Notes under the pieces: model-generated
What the model was told of the DNA's origin: nothing
Database searches by the model: none
The model's input: only the letters and a program-made list of their open reading frames with translations
From: Deltaproteobacteria bacterium
GTDB taxonomy: Bacteria > Myxococcota_A > UBA9160 > SZUA-336
Assembly: GCA_029261895.1 (NCBI GenBank)
Contig: JAJDAK010000064.1
Location: 18,582-82,581, forward strand
Direction: 5' to 3'
DNA length: 64,000 bases
Position numbers and translations under genes: made by a program
Shown here: piece after piece, positions 4,917 to 22,243 of the stretch
How positions within the stretch are numbered: the first letter of the stretch is position 1
Layout of the letters: each line of letters begins with the position of its first letter

Positions 4917-4980
4917 TACCGTGGCAGTCAATGCGATGCGCAACATCACGTTAACTGAGTTGTTGCAACCTGATTCACCA

Positions 4981-4990
4981 CTATTATAAG
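4981..4990 (-). promoter_or_regulatory. Candidate -10 box (TATAAT on the minus strand) about 65 nt upstream of the NRPS start codon, in the AT-richer 4920-5120 intergenic region
   Basis: The minus strand reads ...cggaatctcttataatagtgg... The -35 is weak (atccac). Confidence 0.2.
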
Positions 4991-5304: not shown

Positions 5305-6765
5305 CTAGATCAGCGTGAAGCTGTTCAGGTGAAGTTGAATACTGTGTCCGCAGGATTCTTTCGTTACAGCGTGTTGGGCGAGTTGCGGGTCGTTGGACGT
5401 GGCGATGGTTCGGCGGCCATCGGGAAGATCGCAGAGTGCGATCGTTGTTGCCGGTGCGTTGTTCATATACAACACGGTGTAGGTCGCGATCGTGGCCGGC
5501 CCCCTTGCTTCGTCTGCGAGTTCCAAGCGTGGAGTGTCGGCACAGGTGGCTTCCGTCACGTCGTCGAAATGGAATTTGCTGGTTCGCGGTTCGGTGGACC
5601 ATAGGCTTACGCCCTGTTTGGTCAGAATGCCGCTCACCGCGGTCGCCATACCCAAGCTTCCCGGATCCGCGCGTAGGACTTCGACCATTCGCGGGAGGGC
5701 TTGAAGTACGTAGTGGTTGAACGGTCCGCCTGCGAACGTCATTCCACCCGTTAGTGTCAGTGCGCGTGCCGCGGTCAGGCCGAGCTCCTGGAGTTGGACG
5801 CGAACGGCTGCAGGAAAGCAGCTATAGAGTTCGAGATGCTGGACCTCAGAGATTTCAGCAGAGATACGTCCTAACGCGGTCGTGGCCGCGTGTGCGAAAC
5901 CCGGGCATCGCTCGATTTGACGCCGGCGTGAAAGCGCACATACATCGTTGGAGTCTGCGATCGCCAGTGGAATGACCCAACGCTCGCGAGGAATACCAAA
6001 ACGCTGGGCTGTTGCGACCGAACACAGAATTAGTGCGGCGGCTTGGTTTACGTTCCATTGCGAAGCGAGCATTTTTGTATAGGGAAATGCAAGTTCGCCG
6101 CTACGCAGAATCATTTCCGCATCGACAGGTTCTTGGGTCCACGCCTGAGGGTTTGTTTGTGCGACGCGGCTATAGGCAGCCCATAGTCCGGCGAGTTCTT
6201 CCCGGTGGCGCCTTACGTCTTGGCCGGAGTTCGCACGGAGTGAGTTTTCGATCATTGCGTATTGCGTAACCGGTCCCGCCAAGCCCCTTTGAATCTCGAG
6301 CAGGTCGATCACCAGCGCGTCTGGTTTAATGAGCGAATCAGGTTTGCACGGAGCTTGCTCCGTGTTTTTCACGTTAATACCGAGACGTTTCGCTTGTTGC
6401 TCGCGATATTTCGCCTCTGCGCCAACGACGAGTGCAATCTCCGACTTACCGTTCGCAATGTCTCGAGCCGCGCGTCCGAGCAGCGTGGTCTGCAGAACGC
6501 CAACGTCTGCGATTTCTGTGCGCGCGCGAGTCGCGCCGAGTTGATCTGCGAGCAACCGACCCGGATCGGAATACGACCAGAGCCCACGTGGGATCCGGAT
6601 CGAATCCGCGTTCGTGATCAGTTCGTGAGACCCCGCATCTTTCGCGGCGGCGTCCAACGCGCTGAGCATTAACGCCAACGCTTCCCTGGCACGCGCCGGA
6701 TCGGCTTCGTACTCTTGAACGGCTGCGGCGCCCACCAGAACGGGCGTACTTGGGTCGATCGTCAT
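5305..6765 (-). CDS. Thiolase-fold (SCP-x / lipid-transfer-protein type) protein. The catalytic N-terminal Cys is not obvious.
   Basis: ORF 5305..6855 trimmed to ATG 6765 (MTIDPSTPVLVGAAAVQEY) with a GAGGGGG RBS. The N-terminus is thiolase-like, an IALVVGAEAK segment resembles the VGxEKM region, and the C-terminus has a GGMTFAGGPFNHY glycine-rich loop. No NxxCxSG motif was seen. Confidence 0.55.
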   Translation of the reverse strand: MTIDPSTPVLVGAAAVQEYEADPARAREALALMLSALDAAAKDAGSHELITNADSIRIPRGLWSYSDPGRLLADQLGATRARTEIADVGVLQTTLLGRAARDIANGKSEIALVVGAEAKYREQQAKRLGINVKNTEQAPCKPDSLIKPDALVIDLLEIQRGLAGPVTQYAMIENSLRANSGQDVRRHREELAGLWAAYSRVAQTNPQAWTQEPVDAEMILRSGELAFPYTKMLASQWNVNQAAALILCSVATAQRFGIPRERWVIPLAIADSNDVCALSRRRQIERCPGFAHAATTALGRISAEISEVQHLELYSCFPAAVRVQLQELGLTAARALTLTGGMTFAGGPFNHYVLQALPRMVEVLRADPGSLGMATAVSGILTKQGVSLWSTEPRTSKFHFDDVTEATCADTPRLELADEARGPATIATYTVLYMNNAPATTIALCDLPDGRRTIATSNDPQLAQHAVTKESCGHSIQLHLNSFTLI

Positions 6766-6888
6766 CGGGCCCCCTCGAGGTTGCGCTAGTTGGGTTCGCC
6801 ACGAAGGCGTCGATATCGATCGAGTGTACACGGCAGATAGCAGCGTTGACACCACGGTGATTCCGGCCGACCATCGCCAACCGATCGT

Positions 6889-6965
6889 GGCCCAGTAGCT
6901 CAGCTGGATAGAGTACTAGCCTCCGGAGCTAGGAGTCGCAGGTTCGAACCCTGCCTGGGTCACCA
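6889..6965 (+). tRNA. tRNA-Arg (anticodon CCG) with encoded CCA
   Basis: Cloverleaf: acceptor GGCCCAG/CTGGGTC, D-arm GCTCAGCTGGATAGAG, anticodon stem CTAGC / loop CTCCGGA / GCTAG, T-arm GCAGGTTCGAACCCTGC, discriminator A, CCA. Confidence 0.9.
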
Positions 6966-7014
6966 TCACCGTCGGATCCTGGTCGTACGGCTTGTGGAGG
7001 CGCTACGGGCTGCT

Positions 7015-10000
7015 TTAGGGAGTCTCGTCGAGCCGATCGATCAAATAGGCTCGGAGATTTTCGGGCGAAACAATCGCTTCCAATGAACCGACTTTGAGCG
7101 CGCGCTCTACTGTGTGTACGCGGTCAAATTCCGTCGCGACTTCGGCCTGCTTTTCTAGTCGTACGGCATGCTCGATAGAATCGAGTTCCTCACGCGAACT
7201 GAAAGCGCCATTAATCTTGGCCGTGCGCAGGTTTCGAATCCTCTGATCCGCGGCCATGCGTGCACGGACTTCGCGGTGAAAAACAACCGCCGCCGCAGGC
7301 CCGCCTCCGATCACCGATGCAAACGAGCCGGTGAGTGCGGTTGCACGAAGCTCGGAGTTGAGCTCGCGCGAAAACACGACGTAAGCGCCGCCGTGATAGC
7401 GGGACACTACAGTGAAGAGTAGGGGACCCTTGAAATTGACCACCGCGCGCGCGATTTCGGCACCGTACTCGAGCTGCAGCGCTCGCATGGATTCGGGCGA
7501 CCCGTCAAAGCCCGAGAGATTCGCAAGAATCACGGCAGGTCGATTACCGCTCGCAGCGTTGATCGCGCGTGCCAGTTTTTTGGAAGACAATGGGAACAGA
7601 GTGCCGCCTGACCAGGTCGACGGTCCGTCAGTGGATGCATAGCCCTCGCGTGGTAGAGGTTGACTCTCAATACCGATCAGTGAGATCGCATGTCCGCCGA
7701 GCCGTGTGTCCCAGACGATGGTGGTACCTGCGTCCTGCCAGCGGAGCCAACGTTCCAGGTAGCCTGCGTCTTGGTCCACAGTTGCGCGCATCACATCGCG
7801 CATCGCGAATGCGCATTTACGTTCCGGGTTTTTAGATGCACTGAATATATCGCCGACACGTTCAAAGCCATGGTCTGCATTAGGTTCGCACGCATACTCG
7901 GTGATGTTGCGGTCTCGAGGGTCGGCTGTTGCAGTCCGTGATGGTCGAGAGGTACCAGAAGCGACGTAGGTGAAGCGATAGTGTTCATAGAGCGTCTGAT
8001 ACGCATCGAATAAACTCCGCGCGTAGTACTGGGCTTCGCCGTTGGGGCCCATGACTCGCTCAAAACCGCCGATCGCAACCTCGTCCTCCGCCGAGACCGA
8101 TCCGGAAGCTTCCAGCGCCGCGCGTCCAGTGAGAACCATCGCACCCGCCGGCGTCATGATCAATGCGCCACGGGACCGAGAGTGCATGGTTGCGAGTGCA
8201 TTAAAGTAGCTTTGCGCGCCGACGTTCACTCCTGAAACCAAGATATGAATTGTTCCGCCAGCCTCTGTAAATTCGATGATTCGACGGACTACGCGTGCCG
8301 TCGCGTCTAAGTTTTCTGTGCCGCTATCCATAGCGATCCGAGCACCGCTGGAAATGGGCACCCATTCAACCGGCACCTCATTGCGCTCCGCCAGATCGAT
8401 TGCAGCCTGTATGCGATCGCATTCTCTTGCACTGAGCGCGCCCATGCCTTGGGTCGGATCGGAAAGGATCAGCATGCGACGAATTCCGCTGGGGAACTCC
8501 GGTGTTGGCGTGTTGATTAGTCCGACCACAACGCCTGCCGTGTTTTGCCCGTAGTTTCGATCCGCGACACTCATTAGCCGTGGCTCGGTGCTTTCAGGGT
8601 CCAGATCGTATTCCTGAAACTGGCCTGTAGGGAGGCGTACCGCGTCGGAATCCGAGCTCAACCCGTTGGCTCGTGCACCGCCCGTGAGCATACGAATGAT
8701 CTCGTAGGGATAGATGAGTCCGTGACGCCGCGCCCGAACCAATTTGCGTTCGTAATCTTGCGCAGGTTCCAAAGGCGCATGATGGACGGAGCGCGCGTAG
8801 ACCTCGGAGTGTGCGCCCGTAGGATCTGCAATGACCAATTCGATGGGACCGTCGGCCCCGTCTTGAATCGGTTGCTCGACCCGAACTACAACTTTTTCCA
8901 GCCCCAAATGACGAACCGCCGGTGCCAATCGATGGATCACCGGCTTGGTTGTTTCCGCGTCCACAGAAACCGGGGATGCAACCGCAAGAAAGATTCGGTT
9001 CCACTGCAATTGGCGACGGGGGTCTCGCTCGCCGATGACGTGGCGTAGGGTACGCGCAGCTTCAAAGAACGCGTGCTCGAACTCGGGAATCAGTAAGGTG
9101 TCGGGATCTGTCCCGCCGACGATATCCGCCAGAACAAAAATTCTTTCATCACTCGGTACCTCTTTGCTGCGTAGGTGGAAGCAGAAAAGGTCTTCGGGGG
9201 CGTCCAATCTTTCGAGGTCAAAGGCCTGTAACCGCTCGAGTCCTACGCGTGCTGCGGTTTCGGGATGTATTCCATGCAACTCCTTCTGGAGTACGACTTG
9301 TCCGTCACAGCACAAGAAGCTGAGATGTTGCGGCGCCAACTGCGCGCGCTGAAGCGTGATGCAAAGGCGTTTAAACGGGAATTCGCTATGAAGCTGATGT
9401 AGTACAGCGCTGGCGAGTTCGTCTTCTTTGATATCATGCTCGCAGTCAACGAAGAGTTCCAATGCGGTCGGTTGGATGGATTGGGCCAAGCGTCCGATCT
9501 GATTCAAGCAAGAGCTTAGTTCATCGAGTCTGGTTCGGGTCGCCCAGACCGTGCGACCATCGTCGAACTCAAAGCATTCGATGGTGGGATGAGTGTTTGC
9601 TAACAGGCTGGGACCATTGGATACGTGCGGTACATAGAGTCGGGCAACGATAGCTTCGATGGAATCCGGTCGATCGGCTCTACCCATGGCATTCTTCTCT
9701 AGCACGGGTCGATTGAAAATCGTGTATGCGGTCTCGATCGCGAGATCTGCAACAGAATCGGACACGAGGCCTCGGAGTCCAGCGATCGCGATCAACGACG
9801 CGTGGAAAGCCTGGTCGGCTTCAAGGTTGAGCCCGCTCGCCGCAAGCGCACCGAGAAGCTTGGTGATTCCTAGCACCAGACGCAGCCGCCGGTCACGGGA
9901 TTGCTGTGACGCGAGCAGGCGCAACAAACCGCGCTCTAGGCCGGCACTGGGTTCTAGTCGGGTGACGCCGTAGTGCGCAAGCGCGTGTTCAAGGAGAATC

Positions 10001-12444
10001 CGAAAGTTTGGTGAAACTCCTTCGCCAGCCGCACCGATCCGCCGCATGTACTTACGTAGATGCGCGTGGTTGGAGAAGCCCAATTCACCCTCGATCGAGG
10101 CTTGTGGGCGTTTGACGAAAAGGCGTTCGATATCGACGAATGTTTGGAGTTCATGTCGGAGTTCAGAAAGTTCCAAGCGAAATGTTTCAGGCAAGTCGTC
10201 TGGAACCTCTGCGTTCAGGATCGCGAGCAGCAGGTCGCACCGTTGGGGATTAAGATCGTATCCCATCAACACACGACGAATTTCATTTCGTGCACCATCG
10301 ATTGCGTTTAATCGATGTTCCCTTGTGTCTCCCGCCGCAGAACTGAGGTCGGGGACCAGGTCTGCGGCTTCGTCAGTGGAGCGAAAAAAAGTCTCCAGTG
10401 GATCAGGCTCCGCCGGAAATTCGATGCGTAGTTTTGAAGCTGGTTCACTGACCTCGAGAGAGTCGGTAGCATCTGGTTCGATGATTACGAGGAGATCAGT
10501 ATCGCTCACCTGTTGACCCATCTGCACGCGAACTTCTTTGACTTGACCGGCTATGGGTGACTGAACCGCAATTTCCATCTTCATGGCTTCCAAAAGACCC
10601 AATGATTGGCCAGGGACTACGTGGTCGCCCTTAGCGATATGTATTGCGGTCACGCGTGCAGGTGCTTGCGCACGGACGTAGCCCGCAAGGTCACTACCAA
10701 AACGATAGGGATGGCTTTCGACTTCTATGCGAATGCCTTGTTCAGATACGTCGTGAAGCACTCGCAGTGCACGCCCTTCACGTTCCAGTGATGCGACATT
10801 CAAATCCCGTGCAAGGAGGGTCGCGTGTACGACTTTTCCATCGAGGTATACACGGTATTTCCAGGCGCCAACTGCGAATACATCAAGCCGATATTCCTCA
10901 AGACTGTGCGTGAGCTGAATCTGTTGTCCTGTTGACGCAGGGATCCAGTTCGGGGAGAGATTGCCTGGGTCGGTAAGAAACTTTCGGCGTGCCGCGTCTC
11001 GATTTCGCTGATACGAGAGAATCGCCGCCGCGATCAGGGCATCGCTAAGGTAGCGATCGGACCCGTCTCGAAGCGCGGGATTCTGGTCCAGCCACTCCGT
11101 GTCAAACCGACCTGCACGAAAGGTCGGATGATCAAGTAAATGGATCAAAAACCCCTTGTTACTTGTGCCGCCCTGAACCACGAGTTCGAAGTCTTTCAGT
11201 CCAGCGAGCAAGCGTGCGTGCGCTTCCTCGCGTGTTTGTCCGCTGGCAATGACTTTGGCGATCAGCGAATCGAATGCTGCGGGTATCTCGGCACCACCGA
11301 CGATGTCGGTGTCAATGCGTATCCCGGGACCGTGGCACGGTGCGAAGTGAACGATCCGGCCGGGTGAAGGTTGAAATCCCGTGGCCGGGTCCTCTGCGCA
11401 GACTCGAGCTTCCAGCGCGAATTTTCCAGGCGCGTTAGGTTGAATCGAAAGCACTTCGCCTTGTGCAATACGAATCTGTTGATGGATCAGGTCGATGCCC
11501 GTAACGGCTTCGGTGATTCCGTGTTCAACTTGGAGTCGTGGATTGACTTCGAGGAAGTAGATGTGGTTTTCAGAGACCAGGAATTCAACGGTTCCAACGC
11601 CGCGGTACTCTGCCTGGGTTGCGAGTCGAACAGCGAGATCTTCGATCTCCTGTAGCAGTTCAGTGGGTAGATTAGGAGGCGGAGTTTCTTCCAATACCTT
11701 CTGATGTCGTCGTTGAACCGAGCAGTCCCGGCAACCGAGTGCGATCACGTGGCCATACATATCCGCCACGATTTGCACTTCGATATGTCGACCGTGTGGA
11801 AGTTTCTTCTCGATAAAGAGCGTATCGTCGCCGAACGCTGACTTGGCTTCAGCGGCGGCGGAGCGAAACGCATCGGGGAGTTCTGCGGGCGTCTCCACAA
11901 TGCGGATGCCGCGACCGCCACCGCCCGCGCTTGCTTTGACGACCAACGGAAAGCCCACGCGTTTTGCGCAATCTCGAGCCGCATCCAGGGTATCAACGCG
12001 ACTACCGCTCCAGGGAATGACTGGAACGCCAGCGGCTACAGCGAGTTGCTTCGCACAGATTTTGTCACCGAGGCTGCGCATTACATCAGCGGGAGGCCCT
12101 AAAAAACAAATGCCAGTCTGGTCCAGGCGGGAGACAAACTCTGGATCTTCGGATAGAAATCCCCAACCAGGCCATACGGAATCTGCACCGACGTCTTGGA
12201 TGGCGCGAATCAAACCGTCGTAGTCGAGGTAGGCTTGAACGGGTCCGTCTGGGGAGGGGAGTCGTACGGCCCGATCCGCATGACGCACAAAGCTCGCGTC
12301 GCGGTCGACGTCGGTATAGAACGCAACGCACTCGAGCTCCACGTTTTCCAGTTCGCGAAACGTTTTGACCGCACGGATACAGCGCATCGCGGGCTCGCTA
12401 CGATTGACAATCGCCAGACGTCTTAAGTTACGACGATGTGTCAT
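7015..12444 (-). CDS. Single-polypeptide multidomain acyl-CoA carboxylase (biotin carboxylase, biotin carboxyl carrier and carboxyltransferase domains), about 1809 aa
   Basis: ORF 7015..12525 trimmed to ATG 12444 (MTHRRNLRRLAIVNRSEPAMRCIRA). BC domain: ATP-grasp with EVNPRLQVEH. Biotinyl-lysine motif: EAMKMEI. C-terminal half: carboxyltransferase N and C subdomains (SGGARI, LIMTPAGAMVLTG). Confidence 0.85.
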   Translation of the reverse strand: MTHRRNLRRLAIVNRSEPAMRCIRAVKTFRELENVELECVAFYTDVDRDASFVRHADRAVRLPSPDGPVQAYLDYDGLIRAIQDVGADSVWPGWGFLSEDPEFVSRLDQTGICFLGPPADVMRSLGDKICAKQLAVAAGVPVIPWSGSRVDTLDAARDCAKRVGFPLVVKASAGGGGRGIRIVETPAELPDAFRSAAAEAKSAFGDDTLFIEKKLPHGRHIEVQIVADMYGHVIALGCRDCSVQRRHQKVLEETPPPNLPTELLQEIEDLAVRLATQAEYRGVGTVEFLVSENHIYFLEVNPRLQVEHGITEAVTGIDLIHQQIRIAQGEVLSIQPNAPGKFALEARVCAEDPATGFQPSPGRIVHFAPCHGPGIRIDTDIVGGAEIPAAFDSLIAKVIASGQTREEAHARLLAGLKDFELVVQGGTSNKGFLIHLLDHPTFRAGRFDTEWLDQNPALRDGSDRYLSDALIAAAILSYQRNRDAARRKFLTDPGNLSPNWIPASTGQQIQLTHSLEEYRLDVFAVGAWKYRVYLDGKVVHATLLARDLNVASLEREGRALRVLHDVSEQGIRIEVESHPYRFGSDLAGYVRAQAPARVTAIHIAKGDHVVPGQSLGLLEAMKMEIAVQSPIAGQVKEVRVQMGQQVSDTDLLVIIEPDATDSLEVSEPASKLRIEFPAEPDPLETFFRSTDEAADLVPDLSSAAGDTREHRLNAIDGARNEIRRVLMGYDLNPQRCDLLLAILNAEVPDDLPETFRLELSELRHELQTFVDIERLFVKRPQASIEGELGFSNHAHLRKYMRRIGAAGEGVSPNFRILLEHALAHYGVTRLEPSAGLERGLLRLLASQQSRDRRLRLVLGITKLLGALAASGLNLEADQAFHASLIAIAGLRGLVSDSVADLAIETAYTIFNRPVLEKNAMGRADRPDSIEAIVARLYVPHVSNGPSLLANTHPTIECFEFDDGRTVWATRTRLDELSSCLNQIGRLAQSIQPTALELFVDCEHDIKEDELASAVLHQLHSEFPFKRLCITLQRAQLAPQHLSFLCCDGQVVLQKELHGIHPETAARVGLERLQAFDLERLDAPEDLFCFHLRSKEVPSDERIFVLADIVGGTDPDTLLIPEFEHAFFEAARTLRHVIGERDPRRQLQWNRIFLAVASPVSVDAETTKPVIHRLAPAVRHLGLEKVVVRVEQPIQDGADGPIELVIADPTGAHSEVYARSVHHAPLEPAQDYERKLVRARRHGLIYPYEIIRMLTGGARANGLSSDSDAVRLPTGQFQEYDLDPESTEPRLMSVADRNYGQNTAGVVVGLINTPTPEFPSGIRRMLILSDPTQGMGALSARECDRIQAAIDLAERNEVPVEWVPISSGARIAMDSGTENLDATARVVRRIIEFTEAGGTIHILVSGVNVGAQSYFNALATMHSRSRGALIMTPAGAMVLTGRAALEASGSVSAEDEVAIGGFERVMGPNGEAQYYARSLFDAYQTLYEHYRFTYVASGTSRPSRTATADPRDRNITEYACEPNADHGFERVGDIFSASKNPERKCAFAMRDVMRATVDQDAGYLERWLRWQDAGTTIVWDTRLGGHAISLIGIESQPLPREGYASTDGPSTWSGGTLFPLSSKKLARAINAASGNRPAVILANLSGFDGSPESMRALQLEYGAEIARAVVNFKGPLLFTVVSRYHGGAYVVFSRELNSELRATALTGSFASVIGGGPAAAVVFHREVRARMAADQRIRNLRTAKINGAFSSREELDSIEHAVRLEKQAEVATEFDRVHTVERALKVGSLEAIVSPENLRAYLIDRLDETP

Positions 12445-13004
12445 GCACAGGCAAAAGCCACGAAGCGGCCGTGATGGGAAAGAGAAACGGGAAGACCGCG
12501 CTGTAGATCGCCAATGTGTAGCCACGGCATCCGGCGCTTTCGCTCGATCGTGATATTCGAAGCAGCGATGCCCCAGCGCTTGGCCAGCTGTTCGCGGACG
12601 AGACGGCGTACCTCGATACTCTGGGCATCGCTGTCGAGTGCGAAGTCAAAACAACGCAGAGCATGGAAGGGTTCGGTTTCAGACCGCGTCTGGGCAATCG
12701 CGTGAACGTAGTCCGGTCCGTTAAAAAAATGGACGGTGAGGTCGTGTTGCTGATGGATTAGGTTTGCCTTATGGCCGCGGATGGGTCCGCAGACGAAACA
12801 GCGCGGAGAAAATGGCAGTCGTGAGTCCATACGGCGTAATGCTTTGAATGCGGCTTCCTTGGCTGCCCAAAACATCCACCGGGCACGCATGGGGTCGGTC
12901 GACTGTTCAATCATGTCCCGCTCCGAATCTGCGAATACCCGCGAGTCGAATCTCGGATGCGTCTGTTTCGCGCTGGATAGGTCGACCAGGTCATTACCGA
13001 TCAT
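12441..13004 (-). CDS. 4-prime-phosphopantetheinyl transferase, Sfp/EntD type
   Basis: Motifs GNDLVDL and WAAKEAAFKA (PPTase motifs 2 and 3). Start chosen at MIGNDLVDL. Overlaps the carboxylase start by 4 nt and the upstream acyltransferase stop. Confidence 0.75.
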   Translation of the reverse strand: MIGNDLVDLSSAKQTHPRFDSRVFADSERDMIEQSTDPMRARWMFWAAKEAAFKALRRMDSRLPFSPRCFVCGPIRGHKANLIHQQHDLTVHFFNGPDYVHAIAQTRSETEPFHALRCFDFALDSDAQSIEVRRLVREQLAKRWGIAASNITIERKRRMPWLHIGDLQRGLPVSLSHHGRFVAFACA

Positions 13005-13737
13005 CGAAGTATTCTCGCTCCATGTGTGCAAGCCGCCCCACGATTTGCTGGGAGATATCCCGTGCCGCGCGCAGGCCACTACTTTCTGTTTTAGGGTCGA
13101 AGAGTTCTATTATGACTGAGAAGCGTTCATTTCGGTGCGGCAGGTTGGAATAGGTTCCCTGTCCATCGCCGCGTAAATAGACACAAAGCACGCGACAGCG
13201 GGGAATTGAATCGATCAAGCCGCCGACGCCGTAGGCAGCGTTCGTTACGTCTATGCGACCGCTGCGGCTGCGTCCCCCTTCGGGGAATACCATGCCGACC
13301 TCACCGTTTTCGACGCAGAAACCAAATCGACTCATCGTGGCCTGAACTTCCTTTCGAGGCCCGCCACGTTGAATGGGTATGCACTTGAATAGGTAGGATA
13401 GGACGCGAAGCGCGATGCCGTGAGAGAAGTTTGTGCGCTCTGGAACGTTCCATGGCAACGCATGGAAGTTCCTGAGGTACCATCCCGGAGACCCTAGAGC
13501 CCAAGCGATGATGGCGGAATCCACCATCGTCAAATGATTCGGGCAGATCATCAACGGAGCGTCATTGGAGTCGAGGATCCGCCGATATTCGCGTCGCAGG
13601 TGGACTTGATCCCGAATCTGATATCCGAAGCCAAAACGCATGAGCATGATTACCGAAGGAACCGTCAGCGGTGCGAATATTAGGCTGATCCAACGCTGGA
13701 GTTGTATGCGTAGATATGTGCCTGCAGAAACGTTCAC
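12994..13737 (-). CDS. PlsC-family (lysophospholipid/glycerol-3-phosphate-type) acyltransferase
   Basis: HxxxxD motif NHLTMVD and acceptor-binding motif VFPEGGRS. GTG start forms a GTGA overlap with the ACP stop. Confidence 0.8.
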   Translation of the reverse strand: MNVSAGTYLRIQLQRWISLIFAPLTVPSVIMLMRFGFGYQIRDQVHLRREYRRILDSNDAPLMICPNHLTMVDSAIIAWALGSPGWYLRNFHALPWNVPERTNFSHGIALRVLSYLFKCIPIQRGGPRKEVQATMSRFGFCVENGEVGMVFPEGGRSRSGRIDVTNAAYGVGGLIDSIPRCRVLCVYLRGDGQGTYSNLPHRNERFSVIIELFDPKTESSGLRAARDISQQIVGRLAHMEREYFDDR

Positions 13738-13985
13738 GCGCCGAGCTTCGACTCGATCAGTTGTACCGCATTCTCGACGGTTTCCACGAGATCGATGTCT
13801 TCATCCTCGATCTGGATGTCGAACACATCTTCAAACTCGAGGATGATGTCTACGAGTCGTGCGGAGTTTATTTTTAGGTCATCGAGCAAGTGCGTCTTGA
13901 GGGAAATCTTATCGCGCGCGTCTTCGTTTCGAATAAACGGCGCAAGGATGGAAATGATTTTGTCAAAGATATCTTGTCGATTCAT
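13734..13985 (-). CDS. Acyl carrier protein
   Basis: 83 aa, acidic, with DDLKINSARLVDII (DSL-type phosphopantetheine attachment Ser). RBS AAGGAGG lies 7 nt upstream. Confidence 0.85.
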   Translation of the reverse strand: MNRQDIFDKIISILAPFIRNEDARDKISLKTHLLDDLKINSARLVDIILEFEDVFDIQIEDEDIDLVETVENAVQLIESKLGA

Positions 13986-14012
13986 GAATGGCCTCCTTAG
14001 GGTGAAGTGAAT

Positions 14013-15293
14013 CTAGGCGTTCTGCCAATTACCGATCATCAAACACGCATTCACATCGCCGAATCCGAACCCAGCTTTCGCTGCGATCCGTAGTTCGGGT
14101 GCGTCGCGCGTCGTACGGGGTATTGAATGCGAATACCTTTCGATCTCAGGATGAACATCCTCGCAGTTGATCGAAGGATGAATGAAACCTTCGTAGAGCA
14201 TTTGGACGGTAGCAATCGATTCAATCGCACCCGCCGCCCCGAGACTGTGACCGATCATCGATTTGGTGGAGGTGATCGGAGGCAGGTGATCGGGCGTCTG
14301 CTCCAACGCTGTCGCCCAAGCCGCGACTTCCTTTGGATCTGCTCCCGTGGCGGTGAGGTGACCGTTGATGAGACCTACTTCCGATCCGCTGATTCCCGCA
14401 TCTTGCAATGCTGCACGGATACAACGCACAACACCGTTGGGATTAGGTGCGCTCATACTGCCGCCACCACGGTGTCCACCACAGTTGAGCGCGGTTCCTA
14501 GGATCTCCGCGTAGATTCGTGCACCGCGTTGAACCGCGCTCTCGTAGGACTCGAGCAAGAGTACTCCGGCGCCCGCGCTGGGGACGAATCCACCCGCGGA
14601 AGCACTCATGGGTCGGGAAGCTTCTTCTGGGCGATCGTTGAATCCTCGACAGAGCACACGCATGGAATCAAAACCAGCATAGATGTAATGGCTTGCAGCT
14701 TCGGCGCCGCCGCAGAGCATGCGTTCCGCGAGTCCCTGGCGAATTCGATTCGTGCCTTCGGCGATAGCTTCGGTACCTGTGCTACACGCGCTCGAATTGG
14801 TGGTGACTTGGTTCCCGAGTGCAAGCAACCCGGAGATCCGTGCGGAGATACCACTTGCCATGACCTGTTCGACGACGGTACTTCCGAGACGACGAATCTT
14901 GCCCGCATTCGTGAGGGGTACGATGCGTTCGGCGATCGTGTCCATGCCACCAATGCCTGTTCCCAAAATGGCACCTGTATCCCAGTCGACGCGGTCGCTT
15001 TCGGCCTCAGGTCGTTTGAATCCCGCATCTTCCCAGGCATCCACCGCTGCGATACTTGCCAGACGATGACTTGAATTCATGGCGAGCAACTGCTCGCGAC
15101 TGAAATAACGTGATGCGATCTCATCGACACCTTGAGGAATGCCTGCGACCTGGCAACCGAAGCCGAGTTCAGCCATGATAGGATTGAGTCGAATTCCTGA
15201 CTTGCCTTCGCGGAGTGACTGCGTAAACGCGTGTAGATCGGATCCGTTGGCCGCGACGACGCCCATACCCGTGATGACGACCCGCCGTCTCAT
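14013..15293 (-). CDS. Beta-ketoacyl-ACP synthase I/II (FabB/FabF family)
   Basis: N-terminal VVITGMGVV. An internal segment reads TNSSACSTGTEAIAEG in the supplied translation, and the text Cys-His-His triad is HLTATGADPKE ... IGHSLGAAG. 426 aa. Confidence 0.85.
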   Translation of the reverse strand: MRRRVVITGMGVVAANGSDLHAFTQSLREGKSGIRLNPIMAELGFGCQVAGIPQGVDEIASRYFSREQLLAMNSSHRLASIAAVDAWEDAGFKRPEAESDRVDWDTGAILGTGIGGMDTIAERIVPLTNAGKIRRLGSTVVEQVMASGISARISGLLALGNQVTTNSSACSTGTEAIAEGTNRIRQGLAERMLCGGAEAASHYIYAGFDSMRVLCRGFNDRPEEASRPMSASAGGFVPSAGAGVLLLESYESAVQRGARIYAEILGTALNCGGHRGGGSMSAPNPNGVVRCIRAALQDAGISGSEVGLINGHLTATGADPKEVAAWATALEQTPDHLPPITSTKSMIGHSLGAAGAIESIATVQMLYEGFIHPSINCEDVHPEIERYSHSIPRTTRDAPELRIAAKAGFGFGDVNACLMIGNWQNA

Positions 15294-15727
15294 AGGGGAA
15301 CTCCGGTTCCAGAAAGCGTACCTGCACAGACCAGCGAACCACCGGGGAGGCGCATTTCGGCTGAGACGCGGAGCGTCCGCCGTCGATAAAAGACCTTCTT
15401 CGCCGAGGTCGTGACCTCAGTGCCGGGTAGCACGATTCCTGCGAACTCTACGTCCGCATGGGAGAAGAGGGTTGTAATCTTGGCGTCGGGATCCTCACGG
15501 TGCAATAGATAGAGTCCGAGCGCGACCACTGCCGCTTGCGCCATGGTTTCAATGAGAATGACGCCGGGTGTAATCGGCCGACTTGGGAAATGTCCGCGAT
15601 AGAAATCGGCATCTTCACGATAGCGATAAGTAGCGACGACATGATCTTCGTCGAGTTCTAGGATGCGATCGATAAAGCGAAACGGTTCTTGCTGTGGGAT
15701 CGCGGCCAGTATTTCTTCTTTTGTCAT
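15290..15727 (-). CDS. fabZ: 3-hydroxyacyl-ACP dehydratase, FabZ-like hotdog
   Basis: GHFPSRPITPGVILIETMAQ motif. ATGA overlaps on both flanks. Confidence 0.8.
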   Translation of the reverse strand: MTKEEILAAIPQQEPFRFIDRILELDEDHVVATYRYREDADFYRGHFPSRPITPGVILIETMAQAAVVALGLYLLHREDPDAKITTLFSHADVEFAGIVLPGTEVTTSAKKVFYRRRTLRVSAEMRLPGGSLVCAGTLSGTGVPL

Positions 15728-16320
15728 GACTCTCGCACGAGCCTCCCGCCGCGAGAATGTTTTGAAGGCCGTGGATAGTCGGGATAATCGATATTTCGAA
15801 ACGTTCCGACCTTGGCACGTTGAACGCTGTAAATCGGTTCGTCATCGACAAAGAGGGTCGCGTCGCCAAGAACCACTGACGCTCCGACGTTCGTCAGCTC
15901 GGTATAGCGCCGCACATCGACTTCGTAACGTATGAGTCGATCGTGCGGACGAACCTGTCCAAAGAATTCAACCTCGCCACAGCCCAACGCACGTCCTGCC
16001 CCAAGACCACCGCTCCAAGCACAGAAGAAACCAAGCAGTTGCCAGATTCCATCGACGCCCAAGCAACCCGGCTGGACAGGATCGCTCGCAAAGTGACATT
16101 GAAAGAACCAATCATCGAGCCTGACGTCGTACTCGGCGACGATTCGACCGCGTGTTTTCTGTCGATCGATCTCTAAGATGCGGTGAATCATCAGCATCGG
16201 AGGTAAGGGGAGGCGCGCTTTGAATTCGGCAGGAGCGTCAGAGATGAGCGTCCCATTTGCGAAGGCAAGCAGTTCCAATTGCGTGAAACTTTTGCGGTCT
16301 CGAAATTCGACGTAGTTCAT
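15724..16320 (-). CDS. fabA: 3-hydroxydecanoyl-ACP dehydratase/isomerase, FabA-like
   Basis: FFQCHFASDPVQPGCLGVDG matches the FabA active-site region. Start chosen at MNYVEF (ATGA overlap with the KAS III stop). The ORF extends to 16356 if the first Met is used. Confidence 0.75.
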   Translation of the reverse strand: MNYVEFRDRKSFTQLELLAFANGTLISDAPAEFKARLPLPPMLMIHRILEIDRQKTRGRIVAEYDVRLDDWFFQCHFASDPVQPGCLGVDGIWQLLGFFCAWSGGLGAGRALGCGEVEFFGQVRPHDRLIRYEVDVRRYTELTNVGASVVLGDATLFVDDEPIYSVQRAKVGTFRNIDYPDYPRPSKHSRGGRLVRES

Positions 16321-17312
16321 CGCGAATCCTCGGAACGGAGTAGGTAACTTGCCCAAGTCAAGCCTGCGCCTACGCCTGCGACGGCAATATCATCGATGGT
16401 GTCCCATTTTTCCCAACGCATCGAGATGACCGATGCGGAGCTGGCGCAGCCGGTGTTACCGAAAAACTCGACATTGCTGTGATGCTGTGACGTTGAAACT
16501 CCGGCAGCATGGCAAACGGATTCGAGCATACGTAGGTTGGCCTGGTGTCCGACGAAGTGGAAAGATCGGCCGGCGGTCTCATGCTGCTCGCGCAATGAAC
16601 GCACCGCTTGACTCATACGCCTGATTCCGAATGCCTGAACGGTTCGGCCTTCTTGATAGAAGTGGCCGATACGCGGCACGACCACTTTATCTGCGGCGCT
16701 GGGCTTAGATTGGAGCGACGGATTGAGCACACGAAATCGACCGGGGCGCCGGGTAGAGATCACCGCGGCCGCGGCACCATCGCCCCAGAGTACAGACGAC
16801 GAGCGATCCGCGTAGTCGACGGTCTTGGTGAGGGTATCGACTGCGACCAATAGGAGATACTCGGGAAGTGCATCGCTGCGCATCATCGACAGGAGATATA
16901 GCTGGGCGTAGAAACTGGTGCAGGCTGACCGTACGTCAAAACTCGGTACGTCGAGCCCTAGGGCTTGCGCGATATTGCAGGCTTCAGCGGGAGAGGCGGT
17001 ATCTGTCGCAGAGCTACCAGCGATGACCATGCCGATGGCTTCTTTCGGAACGGCTGCCCGTCGGAGCGCGTGCTCCGCGGCCCGTGCGCCAAGTTCTGCG
17101 TTCGATAGCGTCGCAGCTTCAATCGCTGCGCGTGGGTTTTGGTTTCGCGTTTCCCGAATGTAGTCGAGAGGCAAAACAGTTCGGCGTGAGCGTATCCCAA
17201 CGCGTTCGAGGATCCACTCATTCGAAGTTCCAATATCGAGCGATTCGAGGAAGGCGTTGGTTATTTCGTTTTCAGGATGGCAATGGCCGAGGCCGTGAAT
17301 GAAGGTATTCAA
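16317..17312 (-). CDS. fabH: 3-oxoacyl-ACP synthase III (FabH-like)
   Basis: Thiolase-fold KAS III with GNTGCASSA and C/H/N-type residues. Probable TTG start (MNTFIHGLGH) overlapping the upstream stop as TTGA. The alternative is ATG at 17372, which overlaps by 64 nt. Confidence 0.7.
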   Translation of the reverse strand: MNTFIHGLGHCHPENEITNAFLESLDIGTSNEWILERVGIRSRRTVLPLDYIRETRNQNPRAAIEAATLSNAELGARAAEHALRRAAVPKEAIGMVIAGSSATDTASPAEACNIAQALGLDVPSFDVRSACTSFYAQLYLLSMMRSDALPEYLLLVAVDTLTKTVDYADRSSSVLWGDGAAAAVISTRRPGRFRVLNPSLQSKPSAADKVVVPRIGHFYQEGRTVQAFGIRRMSQAVRSLREQHETAGRSFHFVGHQANLRMLESVCHAAGVSTSQHHSNVEFFGNTGCASSASVISMRWEKWDTIDDIAVAGVGAGLTWASYLLRSEDSR

Positions 17313-18256
17313 CGGGTCGCTCCGGAAATATGTTCGCCGCCGTCGACCCGGATGATTTCGCCGTTGATCCATGCGGCGTCATCCTGAGCGAGCAAGTGGA
17401 TTACGTTTGCAACATCGCGCGTCGTCGTGAGTCGACCGAATGGATTACGCGTCCTGGCTTGCGCTTTGAGGTGGTCGCTCCCCGGGATGGCTTTCAGTGC
17501 AGGTGTCTCCGTAATACCTGCTTGAATAATGTTGGTTCGGATACCGTATGGCGCAAATTCAAGCGCCATTGAGCGCGCAAGTGCTTCGAGCGCGACTTTG
17601 GCAGCCGATACTGCGGCATAGCCTTTCCAGGCGACCTTGTTTCCCTCGCTCGTAAGTCCGAAGACCCGTGCGTCGTCTGCAAAGAGATTCCTCGCGTGGA
17701 GACTTTGCACCCAACCCAACAAACTTGTTCCCATACTGTGGATGGTGCGACCGAAGTCTTCCTCGTCGAGAAACGAACGGGTTGGGTATTCGGGGGCTGT
17801 GGCCAAAGCATGTAGCCCGTCATGTCCTGCATTGAAAGATTCGTTGGCGAGGTCTTCCAGTCGGGAGGGCTCAACTCCGAGCCGTTGGGCCAGTTCATTT
17901 CGACTCGTATTGAGACGGGGTTTCTCTGCGACCAGCAGCTTCAAGTTTCCAAATGCGATTGAGTGCAGGAACAGCCTCACCCGACCCTGCGATCCGAGCT
18001 CAGACGTCAATTGATCCAGCACTTCTTCACGCTTCTCGGGGTTGAGTGCGTCGAGGTTAAGACAGAGAACTCGATGGCCGTGGCTGCGAACCTTTTCAAA
18101 CTCCGGTTCGATCTGTGCCATTGCGCCACGACGATCGCGGTGAATCAGGCAAAGATTCATGCCGTTTTCAGCCAGTTTATGCGCGGTCGCCAGGCCAAAG
18201 CCGCTCGAGCCGCCAAGGATCAACGCCCATTGATTCGGACCAAAGCGATCTACCAC
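17309..18256 (-). CDS. Enoyl-ACP reductase of the FabI/FabL/FabV SDR lineage
   Basis: GGSSGFGLATA nucleotide-binding loop, Y-x6-K catalytic motif (YAAVSAAK) and GIRTNIIQAG. GTG start. Confidence 0.7.
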   Translation of the reverse strand: MVDRFGPNQWALILGGSSGFGLATAHKLAENGMNLCLIHRDRRGAMAQIEPEFEKVRSHGHRVLCLNLDALNPEKREEVLDQLTSELGSQGRVRLFLHSIAFGNLKLLVAEKPRLNTSRNELAQRLGVEPSRLEDLANESFNAGHDGLHALATAPEYPTRSFLDEEDFGRTIHSMGTSLLGWVQSLHARNLFADDARVFGLTSEGNKVAWKGYAAVSAAKVALEALARSMALEFAPYGIRTNIIQAGITETPALKAIPGSDHLKAQARTRNPFGRLTTTRDVANVIHLLAQDDAAWINGEIIRVDGGEHISGATR

Positions 18257-18299
18257 TGCTCCCCCCCTGCCTACTGAGACCGTTCGTAGACGTAATTAA

Positions 18300-18343
18300 T
18301 GACTCTCAGTCACATCGGTGGCTGAGAATATGACTCAGAGTCA
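18300..18343. promoter_or_regulatory. Two 13-bp palindromes, TGACTCTCAGTCA (18300-18312) and TGACTCAGAGTCA (18331-18343), 31 bp centre to centre. Putative operator pair.
   Basis: Both are perfect TGACT-N3-AGTCA dyads. One lies in the promoter spacer and one at about +5 to +17. Confidence 0.45.
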
Positions 18344-18354
18344 TGGAGAGTCAA
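18325..18354 (-). promoter_or_regulatory. Sigma70-like promoter for the lipid cassette. On the minus strand it reads TTGACT-N18-TATTCT, and the spacer is occupied by a TGACT-N3-AGTCA palindrome.
   Basis: Minus strand: TTGACTctccatgactctgagtcaTATTCT. The -35 is plus 18349-18354 and the -10 is plus 18325-18330. Confidence 0.4.
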
Positions 18355-18547
18355 GTCCTGCTGTAGGTAATTGAAAAATATGAACTTTCTGGTACTCGAG
18401 GCGAGCAGATTTTTAATCAACCAGGAATCTGGGGGGTAAATGGGCTCCGAAGAATCTCATTTGAGCGGAATGTACTTGAGCGTGGAGGAGCGTGGCCTAA
18501 GTCGTTATACAGTGACCGCTTAGGGCTTGGGTATGTCACTTTGATAG

Positions 18548-18576
18548 CGCAGGTTCGAACCCTGCCTGGGTCACCA
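18548..18576 (+). repeat. 29-bp direct repeat identical to the 3-prime end of tRNA-Arg (6937-6965). Putative att-type island boundary.
   Basis: cgcaggttcgaaccctgcctgggtcacca occurs at both sites in the same orientation. The second copy has no D-arm or anticodon arm upstream. Confidence 0.7.
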
Positions 18577-18592
18577 CCTTGAAAGGTACGCC

Positions 18593-18886
18593 GTGTCGGA
18601 AGGATCAAAGCCAGCCAAAATAAACGTCAATATCGAGGACGAAATCGCGCAGGGCATGTACATCAACTTAGCGATGGTGCGTCATGCCGAAGCCGAATTC
18701 ATCATCGACTTGATGTACCTGCAACCGCAGCAACCCTCCGCGCGCGTGCGCGCGCGTGTTATTTCGAGTCCGAAGCACACCAAGCGTCTGATGTTGGCGC
18801 TGCAAGAAAATGTAAAACGCTTTGAAGAAAGATTTGGCGAGATCGAAGTTTCTGGTCCGAATCCGGCAGACGAACTCCTGCACTGA
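18593..18886 (+). CDS. Small conserved hypothetical protein (DUF3467-like)
   Basis: 97 aa (KINVNIEDEIAQGMYINLAMVRHAEAEFIIDL). No catalytic motifs. Confidence 0.5.
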   Translation: MSEGSKPAKINVNIEDEIAQGMYINLAMVRHAEAEFIIDLMYLQPQQPSARVRARVISSPKHTKRLMLALQENVKRFEERFGEIEVSGPNPADELLH

Positions 18887-22200: not shown

Positions 22201-22243
22201 TGCTATCGTGGAATATGACGGACCGTCAGATAGGAGTTCCGCG

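What the first reader, a model, noticed from the sequence alone, without database searches (positions are those of the whole stretch)
6889..18576. tRNA-Arg(CCG) plus a 29-bp direct repeat of its 3-prime end bracket the 11.6-kb carboxylase-to-enoyl-reductase block: integration signature without an integrase
The sequence cgcaggttcgaaccctgcctgggtcacca occurs at 6937-6965 (the 3-prime end of an intact tRNA-Arg) and again at 18548-18576 in the same orientation, with no tRNA body upstream of the second copy. This is the classical attL/attR footprint of a tRNA-targeted integrative element. Only the nine lipid-synthesis genes lie between the repeats, with no integrase, excisionase or mobility gene. 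The cassette is therefore likely horizontally acquired and since immobilised, or it was captured by site-specific recombination.
Basis: seen in the sequence. Interest (0 to 1): 0.65.

Follow-up and report, generated by a model that had tools for sequence, protein, structure and literature searches.

The report
Integrase-less tRNA-Arg repeat bracketing lipid operon
An exact 29-base copy of the end of a tRNA-Arg gene lies 11.6 kb downstream of that gene and brackets one complete lipid-synthesis operon with no mobility genes, which looks like the scar of a site-specific insertion, but the operon is native to this bacterial group, so this is a relocated or decayed element rather than a foreign import.

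Summary
tRNA-Arg(CCG) lies at 6889-6965, and its last 29 nt (tRNA positions 48-76) recur exactly, in the same orientation, at 18548-18576. Identity stops sharply at both edges and there is no tRNA body upstream of the second copy. The geometry passes every filter used to call tRNA-integrated islands except one: there is no integrase, either in the segment or anywhere in the 64-kb window. The 11,582 bp between the copies is exactly one nine-gene operon with its own promoter and operator.

The "horizontally acquired" reading is not supported. The segment's GC, tetranucleotide and codon usage match both flanks. The same operon, in the same gene order, is chromosomal in most of 80 Myxococcota-type species genomes. 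Its nearest homologue (57%) is as distant as that of the flanking thiolase-like gene (56%). It is never on viral contigs.

The position is unique, however. None of 75 other loci with readable sequence downstream of the carboxylase has a tRNA there. No empty site could be found, because the lineage has no close sampled relative.

Best reading (about 0.5): an integrase-less, CIME-like att-bracketed segment made by tRNA-site recombination of lineage-native DNA. It is a modest curiosity.

The parts
6889..6965 (+). Intact tRNA-Arg(CCG), 77 nt, with CCA encoded and a G2-U71 wobble in the acceptor stem
   Evidence: ARAGORN; sequence; stem mapping is my own reading of the sequence
6937..6965 (+). attL-type copy of the 29-nt core (tRNA positions 48-76)
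   Evidence: Exact match
6966..7014 (.). 49-bp spacer between the tRNA 3' end and the carboxylase stop codon. No coding relic and no terminator-like site
7015..12525 (-). Fused biotin carboxylase-BCCP-central region-carboxyltransferase (ORF 1836 aa). The database version is 1809 aa, so the start is probably at 12444, giving an ATGA overlap with the PPTase stop. The C-terminus is full length compared with homologues
   Evidence: Pfam; P0060; C-terminal comparison
12441..13079 (-). 4'-phosphopantetheinyl transferase
   Evidence: Pfam PF01648
12994..13737 (-). PlsC-type acyltransferase
   Evidence: Pfam PF01553
13734..13985 (-). Acyl carrier protein
   Evidence: Pfam PF00550
14013..15293 (-). Beta-ketoacyl synthase (KAS I/II type)
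   Evidence: Pfam PF00109/PF02801
15290..15727 (-). FabA-like dehydratase (ApeI/ApeP-like in homologues)
   Evidence: Pfam PF07977; homologue annotations
15724..16356 (-). FabA-like dehydratase
   Evidence: Pfam PF07977
16317..17372 (-). KAS III (FabH-like)
   Evidence: Pfam PF08545/PF08541
17309..18256 (-). Enoyl-ACP reductase (SDR type), first gene of the operon
   Evidence: Pfam PF13561
18300..18354 (-). Native operon promoter. The -35 box TTGACT is at 18354-18349. It is followed by the palindromic operator ATGACTCTGAGTCAT (18330-18344 on the + strand). A second palindrome, TGACTCTCAGTCA, is at 18300-18312. The arrangement is conserved in relatives L005, L006 and L007
18355..18547 (.). About 190-bp spacer between the promoter and the orphan copy. 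The whole 18257-18547 leader has GC 0.48. All frames are closed and there is no Rfam match. On the integration reading, this is the element-side arm of attR
18548..18576 (+). Orphan (attR-type) copy of the 29-nt tRNA 3' end. There is no tRNA body upstream. It ends 16 nt before the GTG start of the DUF3467 gene
5305..6855 (-). Left flank: thiolase-like (TLP1-type) gene. The database version is 486 aa, so the start is near 6765. Its conserved upstream Amidohydro_2 partner is absent from the window
2..4927 (-). Left flank: NRPS with a fatty-acyl-AMP-ligase-like A domain, then T, C and A domains. It runs off the window's left end
18593..18886 (+). Right flank: DUF3467 gene. In relatives it sits in a different, conserved neighbourhood

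Best explanation
The two 29-nt copies are a genuine attL/attR-type pair left by site-specific recombination, of the tyrosine-integrase type, at the T-arm/3' end of tRNA-Arg(CCG). A circular DNA carrying a copy of the tRNA's last 29 nt recombined with the tRNA gene. Its copy now completes the functional tRNA (6937-6965), and the displaced original end sits at 18548-18576.

The inserted DNA carried the lipid operon that is typical of this Myxococcota-type clade. It came from the same genome or from a compositionally indistinguishable relative, not from a distant donor. The recombination module was either deleted afterwards or was never on the segment and acted in trans. Selection to keep the tRNA on one side and the carboxylase on the other would have set the deletion limits. 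What remains is an integrase-less, CIME-like segment. It could still be excised or lost through its direct repeats if a cognate integrase exists elsewhere in the genome.

Shown here: the repeat and its geometry, the cargo being exactly one complete operon with its native promoter, the absence of mobility genes, the native composition, and the uniqueness of the position.

Inferred: integrase involvement, the direction and timing of the event, the source of the DNA, and any present-day mobility.
For: - The repeat is exact, not due to chance, and the only one of its kind.
- The orphan is a 3' fragment lying downstream of the tRNA in the same orientation. It starts at the T-stem region and ends exactly at CCA, with sharp edges and no decayed tRNA body. 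This is the configuration Islander uses to map tRNA islands. In Islander's census, 3760 of 3919 islands have a 3' fragment and 1836 use the T-stem/junction subsite.
- The interval is 11.6 kb, within the 2-200 kb range.
- The position is unique. Of 84 loci with this carboxylase family from other genomes, 75 include the carboxylase 3' end plus at least 500 bp downstream (median 7.2 kb), and none has a tRNA there.
- Gene pairs that are conserved in relatives are broken next to the tRNA on both sides. The carboxylase-TetR pair occurs in 10 loci, 9 of them among the 14 most similar, and no homologue of that TetR exists in the window. The Amidohydro_2-thiolase pair holds in L130-L132, and its orthologue is absent from the window.
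- 29/29 identity in a copy with no evident function suggests a fairly recent event.
- Native origin of the cargo: composition and codon usage match the flanks, the promoter/operator is the clade's own, and the best homologue is as distant (57%) as that of the flanking gene (56%).
- L123 shows that integrase-less att-like arrays do occur at a tRNA-Arg(CCG).
Against: - There is no integrase or excisionase, and no relic of one, in the segment or in the 64-kb window.
- Only 49 bp and about 290 bp of non-coding DNA remain at the ends, so any backbone deletion must have been remarkably clean.
- No empty site, attP-bearing element or second example of this operon as cargo was found.
- The relatives used for synteny are distant (52-57% on the carboxylase). 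The broken gene pairs could therefore come from unrelated older rearrangements, and the TetR argument is weak.
- The pre-insertion locus implied by the model, with the tRNA followed 16 nt later by the DUF3467 start codon, is unusual and is not seen in any DUF3467 relative.
- The junctions could not be verified in an independent assembly.
Confidence: 0.5

Rival explanations
1. Remnant of a second tRNA-Arg gene. The operon was once flanked by two direct copies of the tRNA gene, from a local duplication, and the 5' 47 nt of the right-hand copy were removed by a deletion or rearrangement. That leaves a 3' stump. No integrase is involved and nothing was inserted.
For: - It explains the absence of any integrase or relic.
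- It explains the native composition and the clade-native operon.
- Identity ending at CCA is expected for duplicated tRNA genes with diverged flanks.
- The neighbourhood is clearly rearranged.
Against: - No operon locus in 84 other genomes has even one flanking tRNA.
- The stump's left edge falls at the T-stem region, the commonest att subsite, rather than at a random position.
- No residual similarity to the tRNA body lies upstream.
- A non-functional stump that is still 29/29 identical requires a very recent truncation.
Confidence: 0.17
2. Classical horizontally acquired genomic island from a different lineage, since immobilised by loss of its integrase.
For: - The att-type geometry.
- The unique position of the operon at a tRNA.
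- The exact repeat suggests a recent event.
Against: - GC is 0.560 against 0.566 for the rest of the window. The tetranucleotide distance of 0.109 is mid-range among same-size segments (0.080-0.139).
- GC3 and RSCU match both immediate flanks, with r = 0.91 and 0.90.
- The operon is chromosomal and collinear across most of 80 species of the clade.
- The nearest homologue is only 57% identical, the same distance as for the flanking gene.
- The operon is absent from IMG/VR.
- The promoter/operator is shared with relatives.
Confidence: 0.1
3. Assembly artefact. The metagenome-assembled contig is chimeric or mis-joined at tRNA-derived sequence shared between strains or loci, so the bracket does not exist in any real chromosome.
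For: - The source is a MAG contig (101,752 bp) that could not be retrieved or cross-checked.
- tRNA genes are known points for strain-level mis-joins (my own knowledge).
Against: - A mis-join needs a shared k-mer already present on both partners, so it cannot create the orphan 29-mer next to the operon leader.
- 29 nt is shorter than the final k of common assemblers (my own knowledge).
- Composition is continuous across both junctions.
- The segment boundaries coincide with a complete operon.
Confidence: 0.07
4. The orphan copy is kept for a function of its own, for example as a tRNA-like leader or processing signal for the DUF3467 mRNA, or as a protein-binding site. It is not a recombination scar.
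For: - It lies 16 nt upstream of the DUF3467 start codon.
- It is perfectly conserved relative to the tRNA.
Against: - There is no tRNA-like or otherwise stable fold. The z-score is 0.22 and the T-arm is not formed in the MFE structure.
- There is no Rfam match.
- DUF3467 genes in relatives have no such element upstream; a glyoxalase gene sits there instead.
Confidence: 0.03

Closest known systems
tRNA/tmRNA-integrated genomic islands as defined by Islander (Hudson, Lau and Williams 2015, PMC4383910)
   Same: An intact tDNA plus a cognate 3' fragment downstream in the same orientation. The fragment starts in the T-stem/junction subsite and runs to the 3' end. The interval is within 2-200 kb, and the fragment does not overlap a conserved coding domain.
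   Different: There is no integrase gene in the interval, which is a required filter. The content has no anomalous composition, and it is a single conserved metabolic operon rather than phage, ICE or accessory genes.
CIMEs, cis-mobilizable elements (defined in Guedon et al. 2017, PMC5704250, as elements that lost integration and transfer genes but kept attL and attR)
   Same: Bracketed by direct att-type repeats at the 3' end of a target gene, with no integrase or transfer genes.
   Different: Described CIMEs derive visibly from ICEs or IMEs of Firmicutes and often sit in tandem with a functional element. Here there is no decayed backbone, no tandem partner within the window, and the cargo is clade-native. 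Mobilization is untested.
Metabolic-operon islands at a small-RNA gene, e.g. the Dehalococcoides vcrABC islands at ssrA (PMC3146451, abstract seen)
   Same: A catabolic or biosynthetic operon embedded in a segment integrated site-specifically at the end of a small stable-RNA gene.
   Different: Per that abstract, those islands are horizontally acquired. Here no integrase is present and acquisition from outside the lineage is not supported.
Myxophage Mx8-type site-specific integration in Myxococcota (PMC11610982; Islander notes that Mx8 Int extends across attP). That Mx8 attB lies in a tRNA-Asp 3' end is from my memory and was not verified here
   Same: It shows that site-specific integration by phage-encoded integrases operates in the phylum to which this window most likely belongs.
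   Different: No Mx8-like integrase or phage genes are present, and the target tRNA is different. This is only a lead for what enzyme might have acted.

Membership tests
Islander-type tDNA genomic island | Full-length tRNA/tmRNA gene plus a fragment of the same gene on the same replicon | tested here: met
   tRNA-Arg(CCG) at 6889-6965, and an exact 29-nt fragment at 18548-18576
Islander-type tDNA genomic island | Configuration and orientation: a 3' fragment lies downstream of the tDNA and in the same orientation | tested here: met
   Both copies are on the + strand, and the fragment is 11.6 kb downstream of the tRNA 3' end
Islander-type tDNA genomic island | The fragment begins at a known crossover subsite (anticodon loop, T loop or T/acceptor junction) and extends to the tRNA 3' end | tested here: met
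   The fragment covers tRNA positions 48-76, from the base before the T-stem to CCA (subsites)
Islander-type tDNA genomic island | Length of 2-200 kb, and the fragment does not overlap a conserved coding domain | tested here: met
   The interval is 11,582 bp. The fragment is intergenic, 16 nt upstream of the DUF3467 gene
Islander-type tDNA genomic island | A tyrosine integrase gene inside the interval | tested here: not met
   All nine ORFs are lipid-synthesis proteins. The non-coding ends have closed frames. No integrase domain was found in any sizeable ORF of the window
CIME (cis-mobilizable element) | Retains attL and attR | tested here: inconclusive
   Exact direct repeats with att geometry are present. 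Whether they are functional recombination sites cannot be shown from sequence
CIME (cis-mobilizable element) | Lacks integration and transfer genes | tested here: met
CIME (cis-mobilizable element) | Derived by decay of an ICE or IME (recognisable backbone remnants or a related intact element) | tested here: not met
   No coding relics were found. No related element was found in viral, genome or metagenome scans
CIME (cis-mobilizable element) | Excision or mobilization by an integrase supplied in cis or trans | not testable with these tools
   This needs the complete genome, read-level attB/attP detection, or experiment
Horizontally acquired (foreign) genomic island | Composition or codon usage deviating from the host | tested here: not met
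   GC is 0.560 against 0.566. Tetranucleotide distance is 0.109, within the range 0.080-0.139. GC3 and RSCU match both flanks
Horizontally acquired (foreign) genomic island | Sporadic distribution among relatives, or closest homologues in another lineage | tested here: not met
   The operon is collinear in 59 of 84 loci from Myxococcota-type genomes, many of the rest being truncated contigs. The best hit is 57%, against 56% for the flanking gene
Horizontally acquired (foreign) genomic island | Empty integration site in a related genome | tested here: inconclusive
   No relative is close enough. Relatives of DUF3467 and of the thiolase-like gene have different neighbourhoods, and tRNA orthologues share no flank genes

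The most novel reading that the evidence does not exclude
In this lineage a clade-conserved, chromosomal lipid-synthesis operon has been turned into a discrete att-bracketed cassette at a tRNA gene. An integrase encoded elsewhere in the genome can still excise and re-integrate it in trans. On this reading, tRNA-site integrases can capture and shuttle whole 'core' operons between related Myxococcota, or switch them off by excision, without leaving any compositional trace of transfer.
Probability: 0.15. Interest if true: 0.6.

Novelty: new member of a known kind. Interest (0 to 1): 0.3.

Why it matters
If the bracket is a real recombination scar, it shows that a tRNA-site integration signature can surround DNA that looks native by every compositional and phylogenetic measure. 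Island finders that require an integrase or anomalous composition would miss such a case. Readers who rely on the att signature alone would over-call it as foreign. It would also mark this lipid operon as potentially excisable in one lineage. The operon encodes a self-contained fatty-acid-type pathway with a eukaryote-like fused carboxylase and is widespread in uncultured Myxococcota. As it stands, this is a single, unverified example in a MAG with no close relatives, so its weight is modest.

Tried and rejected
1. Empty-site search through the right-flank DUF3467 gene. Relatives at 62-73% identity all show ABC-TPR-glyoxalase-DUF3467-fabH-gyrB and no tRNA, so they are not syntenic with the window.
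2. Empty-site search through the left-flank thiolase-like gene. Relatives show Amidohydro_2-thiolase with no tRNA.
3. Inversion hypothesis: the window's Amidohydro_2 (22208-23500) is the displaced partner of the thiolase-like gene. Rejected, because it is only 22-23% identical to the partner in relatives, while the thiolase-like gene is 55-56% identical.
4. The window's TetR (55251-55877) as the operon's left-behind regulator. Rejected, because it is 25-27% identical to the carboxylase-linked TetRs, it heads an efflux operon, and no operator lies near it.
5. Exact 29-mer or 25-mer scans of species genomes, JGI metagenomes and IMG/VR. All gave zero hits, so neither attP nor a sister locus was found.
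6. Scan with a tRNA anticodon-arm/T-arm pattern. It returned 39 contigs from diverse organisms, none sharing flank genes with the window. L125 has the same acceptor end but comes from an unrelated high-GC genome.
7. 'The tRNA sits inside one lipopeptide gene cluster.' The NRPS and thiolase-like genes are never next to the operon in 84 other loci, so the adjacency is specific to this genome and functional coupling is unproven.
8. Retrieval of the source contig or an independent assembly. This failed four times.
9. Structural-RNA role for the orphan copy. No fold and no Rfam hit.
10. Arm-type or terminal repeats shared by the two ends of the segment. Nothing rose above chance.
11. The tRNA-Ser call in L066 lies inside the carboxylase coding sequence and is a false positive.
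Full report
**Observation.** ARAGORN finds a single tRNA in the window, tRNA-Arg(CCG) at 6889-6965 on the + strand. The 29-mer CGCAGGTTCGAACCCTGCCTGGGTCACCA occurs at 6937-6965 and again at 18548-18576, both on the + strand. There is no third copy even at 3 mismatches, and no match in 100 shuffles. A 15-nt core at 2 mismatches gives the same two sites. It is the only exact long repeat in 6600-18900; every other repeat family there is 63-94% identical and short. Reading the tRNA from the sequence, the repeat covers tRNA positions 48-76: the last variable-loop base, the whole T-arm, the 3' acceptor strand, the discriminator and the encoded CCA. Identity stops abruptly on both sides. The 120 nt upstream of the second copy align to the tRNA 5' part no better than shuffled sequence (score 11 against 12.7 +/- 2.1), and the downstream flanks are unrelated. 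Rfam finds nothing tRNA-like there.

**What lies between the copies.** The 11,582 bp between the copies hold nine minus-strand genes:
- an enoyl-ACP reductase (17309-18256)
- KAS III (16317-17372)
- two FabA-like dehydratases (15724-16356 and 15290-15727)
- a KAS I/II (14013-15293)
- an ACP (13734-13985)
- a PlsC-type acyltransferase (12994-13737)
- a phosphopantetheinyl transferase (12441-13079)
- a fused biotin carboxylase-BCCP-central region-carboxyltransferase of 1836 aa (ORF 7015-12525; the database version is 1809 aa)

The carboxylase C-terminus is full length compared with homologues. Its stop codon is 49 bp from the tRNA end.

Upstream of the reductase is a 291-bp leader. Read on the operon strand, it contains TTGACTctccATGACTCTGAGTCAT. 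The same arrangement, a -35 box followed by the palindrome ATGAC-N5-GTCAT, sits upstream of the operon in relatives L005, L006 and L007. In the window, the palindrome type occurs only there. So the bracketed segment is exactly one complete operon with its own promoter and operator, plus about 190 bp and 49 bp of spacer. Both spacers have closed reading frames and no coding relic.

**Surroundings.** It holds a thiolase-like TLP1-type gene (5305-6855) and an NRPS that runs off the window's left end. The NRPS has a fatty-acyl-AMP-ligase-like adenylation domain followed by T, C and A domains. Both genes are on the same strand as the operon. The right flank holds DUF3467, an unknown 344-aa protein, PEP-CTERM and CBM96 proteins, an amidohydrolase, an acyl-CoA dehydrogenase and a hybrid histidine kinase. 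Beyond that lie core genes: lptB, rpoN, ptsI, metK, ahcY, secDF, carD, ispD, cysS, uvrB and uvrC. No integrase, excisionase or transposase domain was found in any sizeable ORF of the 64 kb.

**Composition.**
- GC is flat across both junctions.
- The segment's GC is 0.560, against 0.566 for the rest of the window.
- Its tetranucleotide-usage distance from the rest (0.109) is mid-range among all same-size segments (0.080-0.139). The NRPS end deviates most.
- GC3 is 0.579 for the operon, 0.590 for the left flank, 0.611 for the near right flank and 0.649 for distal housekeeping genes.
- RSCU correlates at 0.91 and 0.90 with the two immediate flanks.

There is no compositional step at the repeats.

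**The operon elsewhere.** The carboxylase's nearest homologue in 5.8 billion proteins is 57% identical. In four fetched loci the same genes occur in the same order. Their neighbours include PEP-CTERM/exosortase, TSP_3, HEAT, acyl-CoA dehydrogenase and PEPCK genes.

A scan of species-representative genomes with the family-specific central region of the carboxylase returned 80 loci, all from uncultured Myxococcota-type MAGs. Mapping the window's proteins onto all 84 loci gave these results:
- The order ER-KASIII-DH-(SDR)-DH-KAS-ACP-AT-PPTase-carboxylase is conserved.
- 59 loci have at least five of six core genes. Many of the others are truncated contigs.
- 75 loci include the carboxylase 3' end with at least 500 bp downstream (median 7.2 kb).

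None of these loci has a tRNA. The one call, in L066, lies inside the carboxylase coding sequence and is a false positive. None has the thiolase-like gene, the NRPS or DUF3467 next to the operon. The operon is absent from IMG/VR viral contigs. The window's carboxylase is about equally distant from all of them (52-56%), so this lineage is a deep branch.

The operon is therefore an ancestral, chromosomal trait of the clade. What is unusual here is its position, not its presence.

**Breakpoints.** In 10 loci a TetR gene follows the carboxylase within 8-21 bp of the ACC alignment end. Nine of these 10 are among the 14 loci most similar to the window. The window has no homologue of that TetR, although it keeps the operator. 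Because the window is nearly equidistant from all relatives, this is only weak evidence that a gene was lost at the tRNA-proximal junction.

On the other side, the thiolase-like gene is immediately preceded by an Amidohydro_2 gene in relatives L130-L132. The window's amidohydrolase at 22208-23500 is only 22-23% identical to that partner, whereas the thiolase-like gene is 55-56% identical. It is therefore a paralogue, the partner is missing, and an inversion model I considered is rejected. Conserved pairs are thus broken on both sides of the tRNA. At this evolutionary distance, though, the breaks need not belong to one event.

**Search for an empty site or an attP.**
- DUF3467 relatives at 62-73% identity all sit in ABC-TPR-glyoxalase-DUF3467-fabH-gyrB, with no tRNA.
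- The exact 29-mer is absent from 185,579 species genomes. A 25-nt core is absent from JGI metagenomes and IMG/VR. So it is not a dispersed repeat, and the lineage is essentially unsampled.
- A looser tRNA pattern retrieved 39 contigs from diverse organisms, none sharing flank genes with the window. L125 has the same unusual acceptor end but is an unrelated high-GC genome.
- L123 shows an intact tRNA-Arg(CCG) followed by two partial direct copies, with no integrase between them and an AAA_21/AAA_15 ATPase as cargo. It is a precedent for integrase-less att-like arrays at this tRNA type.
- The source contig could not be retrieved, so the junctions could not be checked in an independent assembly.

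**Interpretation.** The geometry is that of a regenerated tRNA gene plus its displaced 3' fragment. That is the principle Islander uses to map islands to single-nucleotide precision. In Islander's census, 3760 of 3919 islands have a 3' fragment and 1836 use the T-loop/junction subsite. This locus passes the fragment, configuration, orientation, subsite, length and CDS-overlap criteria. It fails only the requirement for an integrase gene.

[quoted passage not shown] No decayed backbone is visible here, however, and mobilization is untestable.

I therefore favour, at about 0.5 confidence, a real site-specific recombination scar whose cargo is lineage-native DNA. The recombination module was either deleted, within limits set by selection on the tRNA and the carboxylase, or supplied in trans.

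The rivals are:
- a truncated second tRNA-Arg gene (0.17)
- a MAG assembly artefact (0.07); a mis-join cannot by itself create the orphan copy
- a functional RNA or leader element (0.03); it has no fold (z = 0.22) and no Rfam hit

**Comparison and novelty.** This works like a tDNA-integrated island or CIME, but it cannot be filed as an Islander-type island because a defining feature was tested and not met. It meets the descriptive CIME definition only in part. It is best called a new member of a known kind: a decayed or integrase-less att-flanked segment. Its less common feature is that the cargo is exactly one clade-conserved operon with native composition. That is a caution for both directions of inference. 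The att signature alone over-calls horizontal transfer, and composition-based or integrase-based finders would miss the scar.

Interest is modest (0.3). The evidence rests on one MAG without close relatives, and no integrase, attP or empty site was found.

The most novel reading not excluded is that the operon is an actively excisable cassette moved by a trans-acting tRNA-Arg integrase (probability about 0.15).

**Side observations.** The fused carboxylase belongs to the rare bacterial multidomain type. A precedent is the *Saccharopolyspora erythraea* enzyme (PMC6491548). The BC part of the window's protein matches bacterial BC/MCC/PC structures, and the protein also hits yeast ACC 5csk. Several homologues carry the ACC_central Pfam domain. 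The window's copy lacks a segment of roughly 45 residues that is present in all eight aligned homologues.

Noticed in passing
window 2-6855 (minus strand): An NRPS whose first module starts with a fatty-acyl-AMP-ligase-like adenylation domain (A-T-C-A, running off the window's left end). It is preceded by a thiolase-like TLP1-type gene. Both are on the same strand as the lipid operon, separated from it only by the tRNA. This could be a lipopeptide cluster fed by the operon, but the adjacency is not seen in any of 84 other operon loci.
   Followed up: partly
window 7015-18256; loci L005-L008 and L011-L090: A self-contained nine- or ten-gene lipid operon (ER, KASIII, two FabA-like DH, KAS, ACP, PlsC-like AT, PPTase, roughly 1850-aa fused carboxylase) is conserved in order across dozens of uncultured Myxococcota-type MAGs. 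It is often near exosortase/PEP-CTERM genes. Most copies lack a ketoreductase and all lack a malonyl transferase. An SDR sits between the two dehydratases in L030, L059, L070, L079 and L086. Its product is unknown to me.
   Followed up: partly
window 7015-12525: The fused carboxylase is of the rare bacterial multidomain (eukaryote-like) type. Several homologues carry the ACC_central domain PF08326, and the protein hits yeast ACC 5csk. The window's copy lacks a segment of roughly 45 residues in the central region (consensus TTKEVE...VFDRVGRWL) that is present in all eight aligned homologues.
   Followed up: partly
window 18300-18354; L005 about 3727-3752; L006 about 3784-3808; L007 about 4619-4645: The operon promoter carries a conserved palindromic operator (ATGAC-N5-GTCAT) immediately after the -35 box, and the window has a second palindrome 18 bp away. 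In 10 relatives a TetR gene is translationally coupled to the carboxylase. The window keeps the operators but has no homologue of that TetR within 64 kb.
   Followed up: yes
L123 3448-6961: An unrelated metagenome contig has an intact tRNA-Arg(CCG) followed by two partial direct copies of it, about 1 kb and 3.4 kb downstream. No integrase lies between them. An AAA_21/AAA_15 ATPase (OLD/AbiEii-like, possibly a defence gene) lies in the second interval. This is a tandem integrase-less att-like array.
   Followed up: partly
window 6889-6965; L125 about 2149-2230: The tRNA-Arg(CCG) has a G2-U71 wobble pair in the acceptor stem. Its 3' end is found in no species-representative genome. Only one metagenome contig (L125, a high-GC organism) shares the same acceptor end, and there a second tRNA-like match lies immediately adjacent.
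   Followed up: partly
window 5305-6855 compared with L130-L132: In relatives the thiolase-like gene is the second gene of a tight Amidohydro_2-thiolase pair (8-13 bp apart), followed in L130 by an acyl-CoA-synthetase-type AMP-binding enzyme. In the window the amidohydrolase partner is missing and the downstream AMP-binding function is part of an NRPS.
   Followed up: yes
loci L031, L035, L052, L055, L063-L065, L073, L078, L079, L087, L089: Many MAGs carrying this Myxococcota-type operon are titled 'Spirochaetaceae' or 'Spirochaetales' in their NCBI records. One isolate name even contains 'MYXO'. This suggests systematic taxonomic mislabelling of a Myxococcota-related lineage.
   Followed up: no
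L066 3676-3764: ARAGORN calls a tRNA-Ser(CGA) on the minus strand inside the carboxylase coding sequence (2704-8265). It is almost certainly a false positive.
   Followed up: yes
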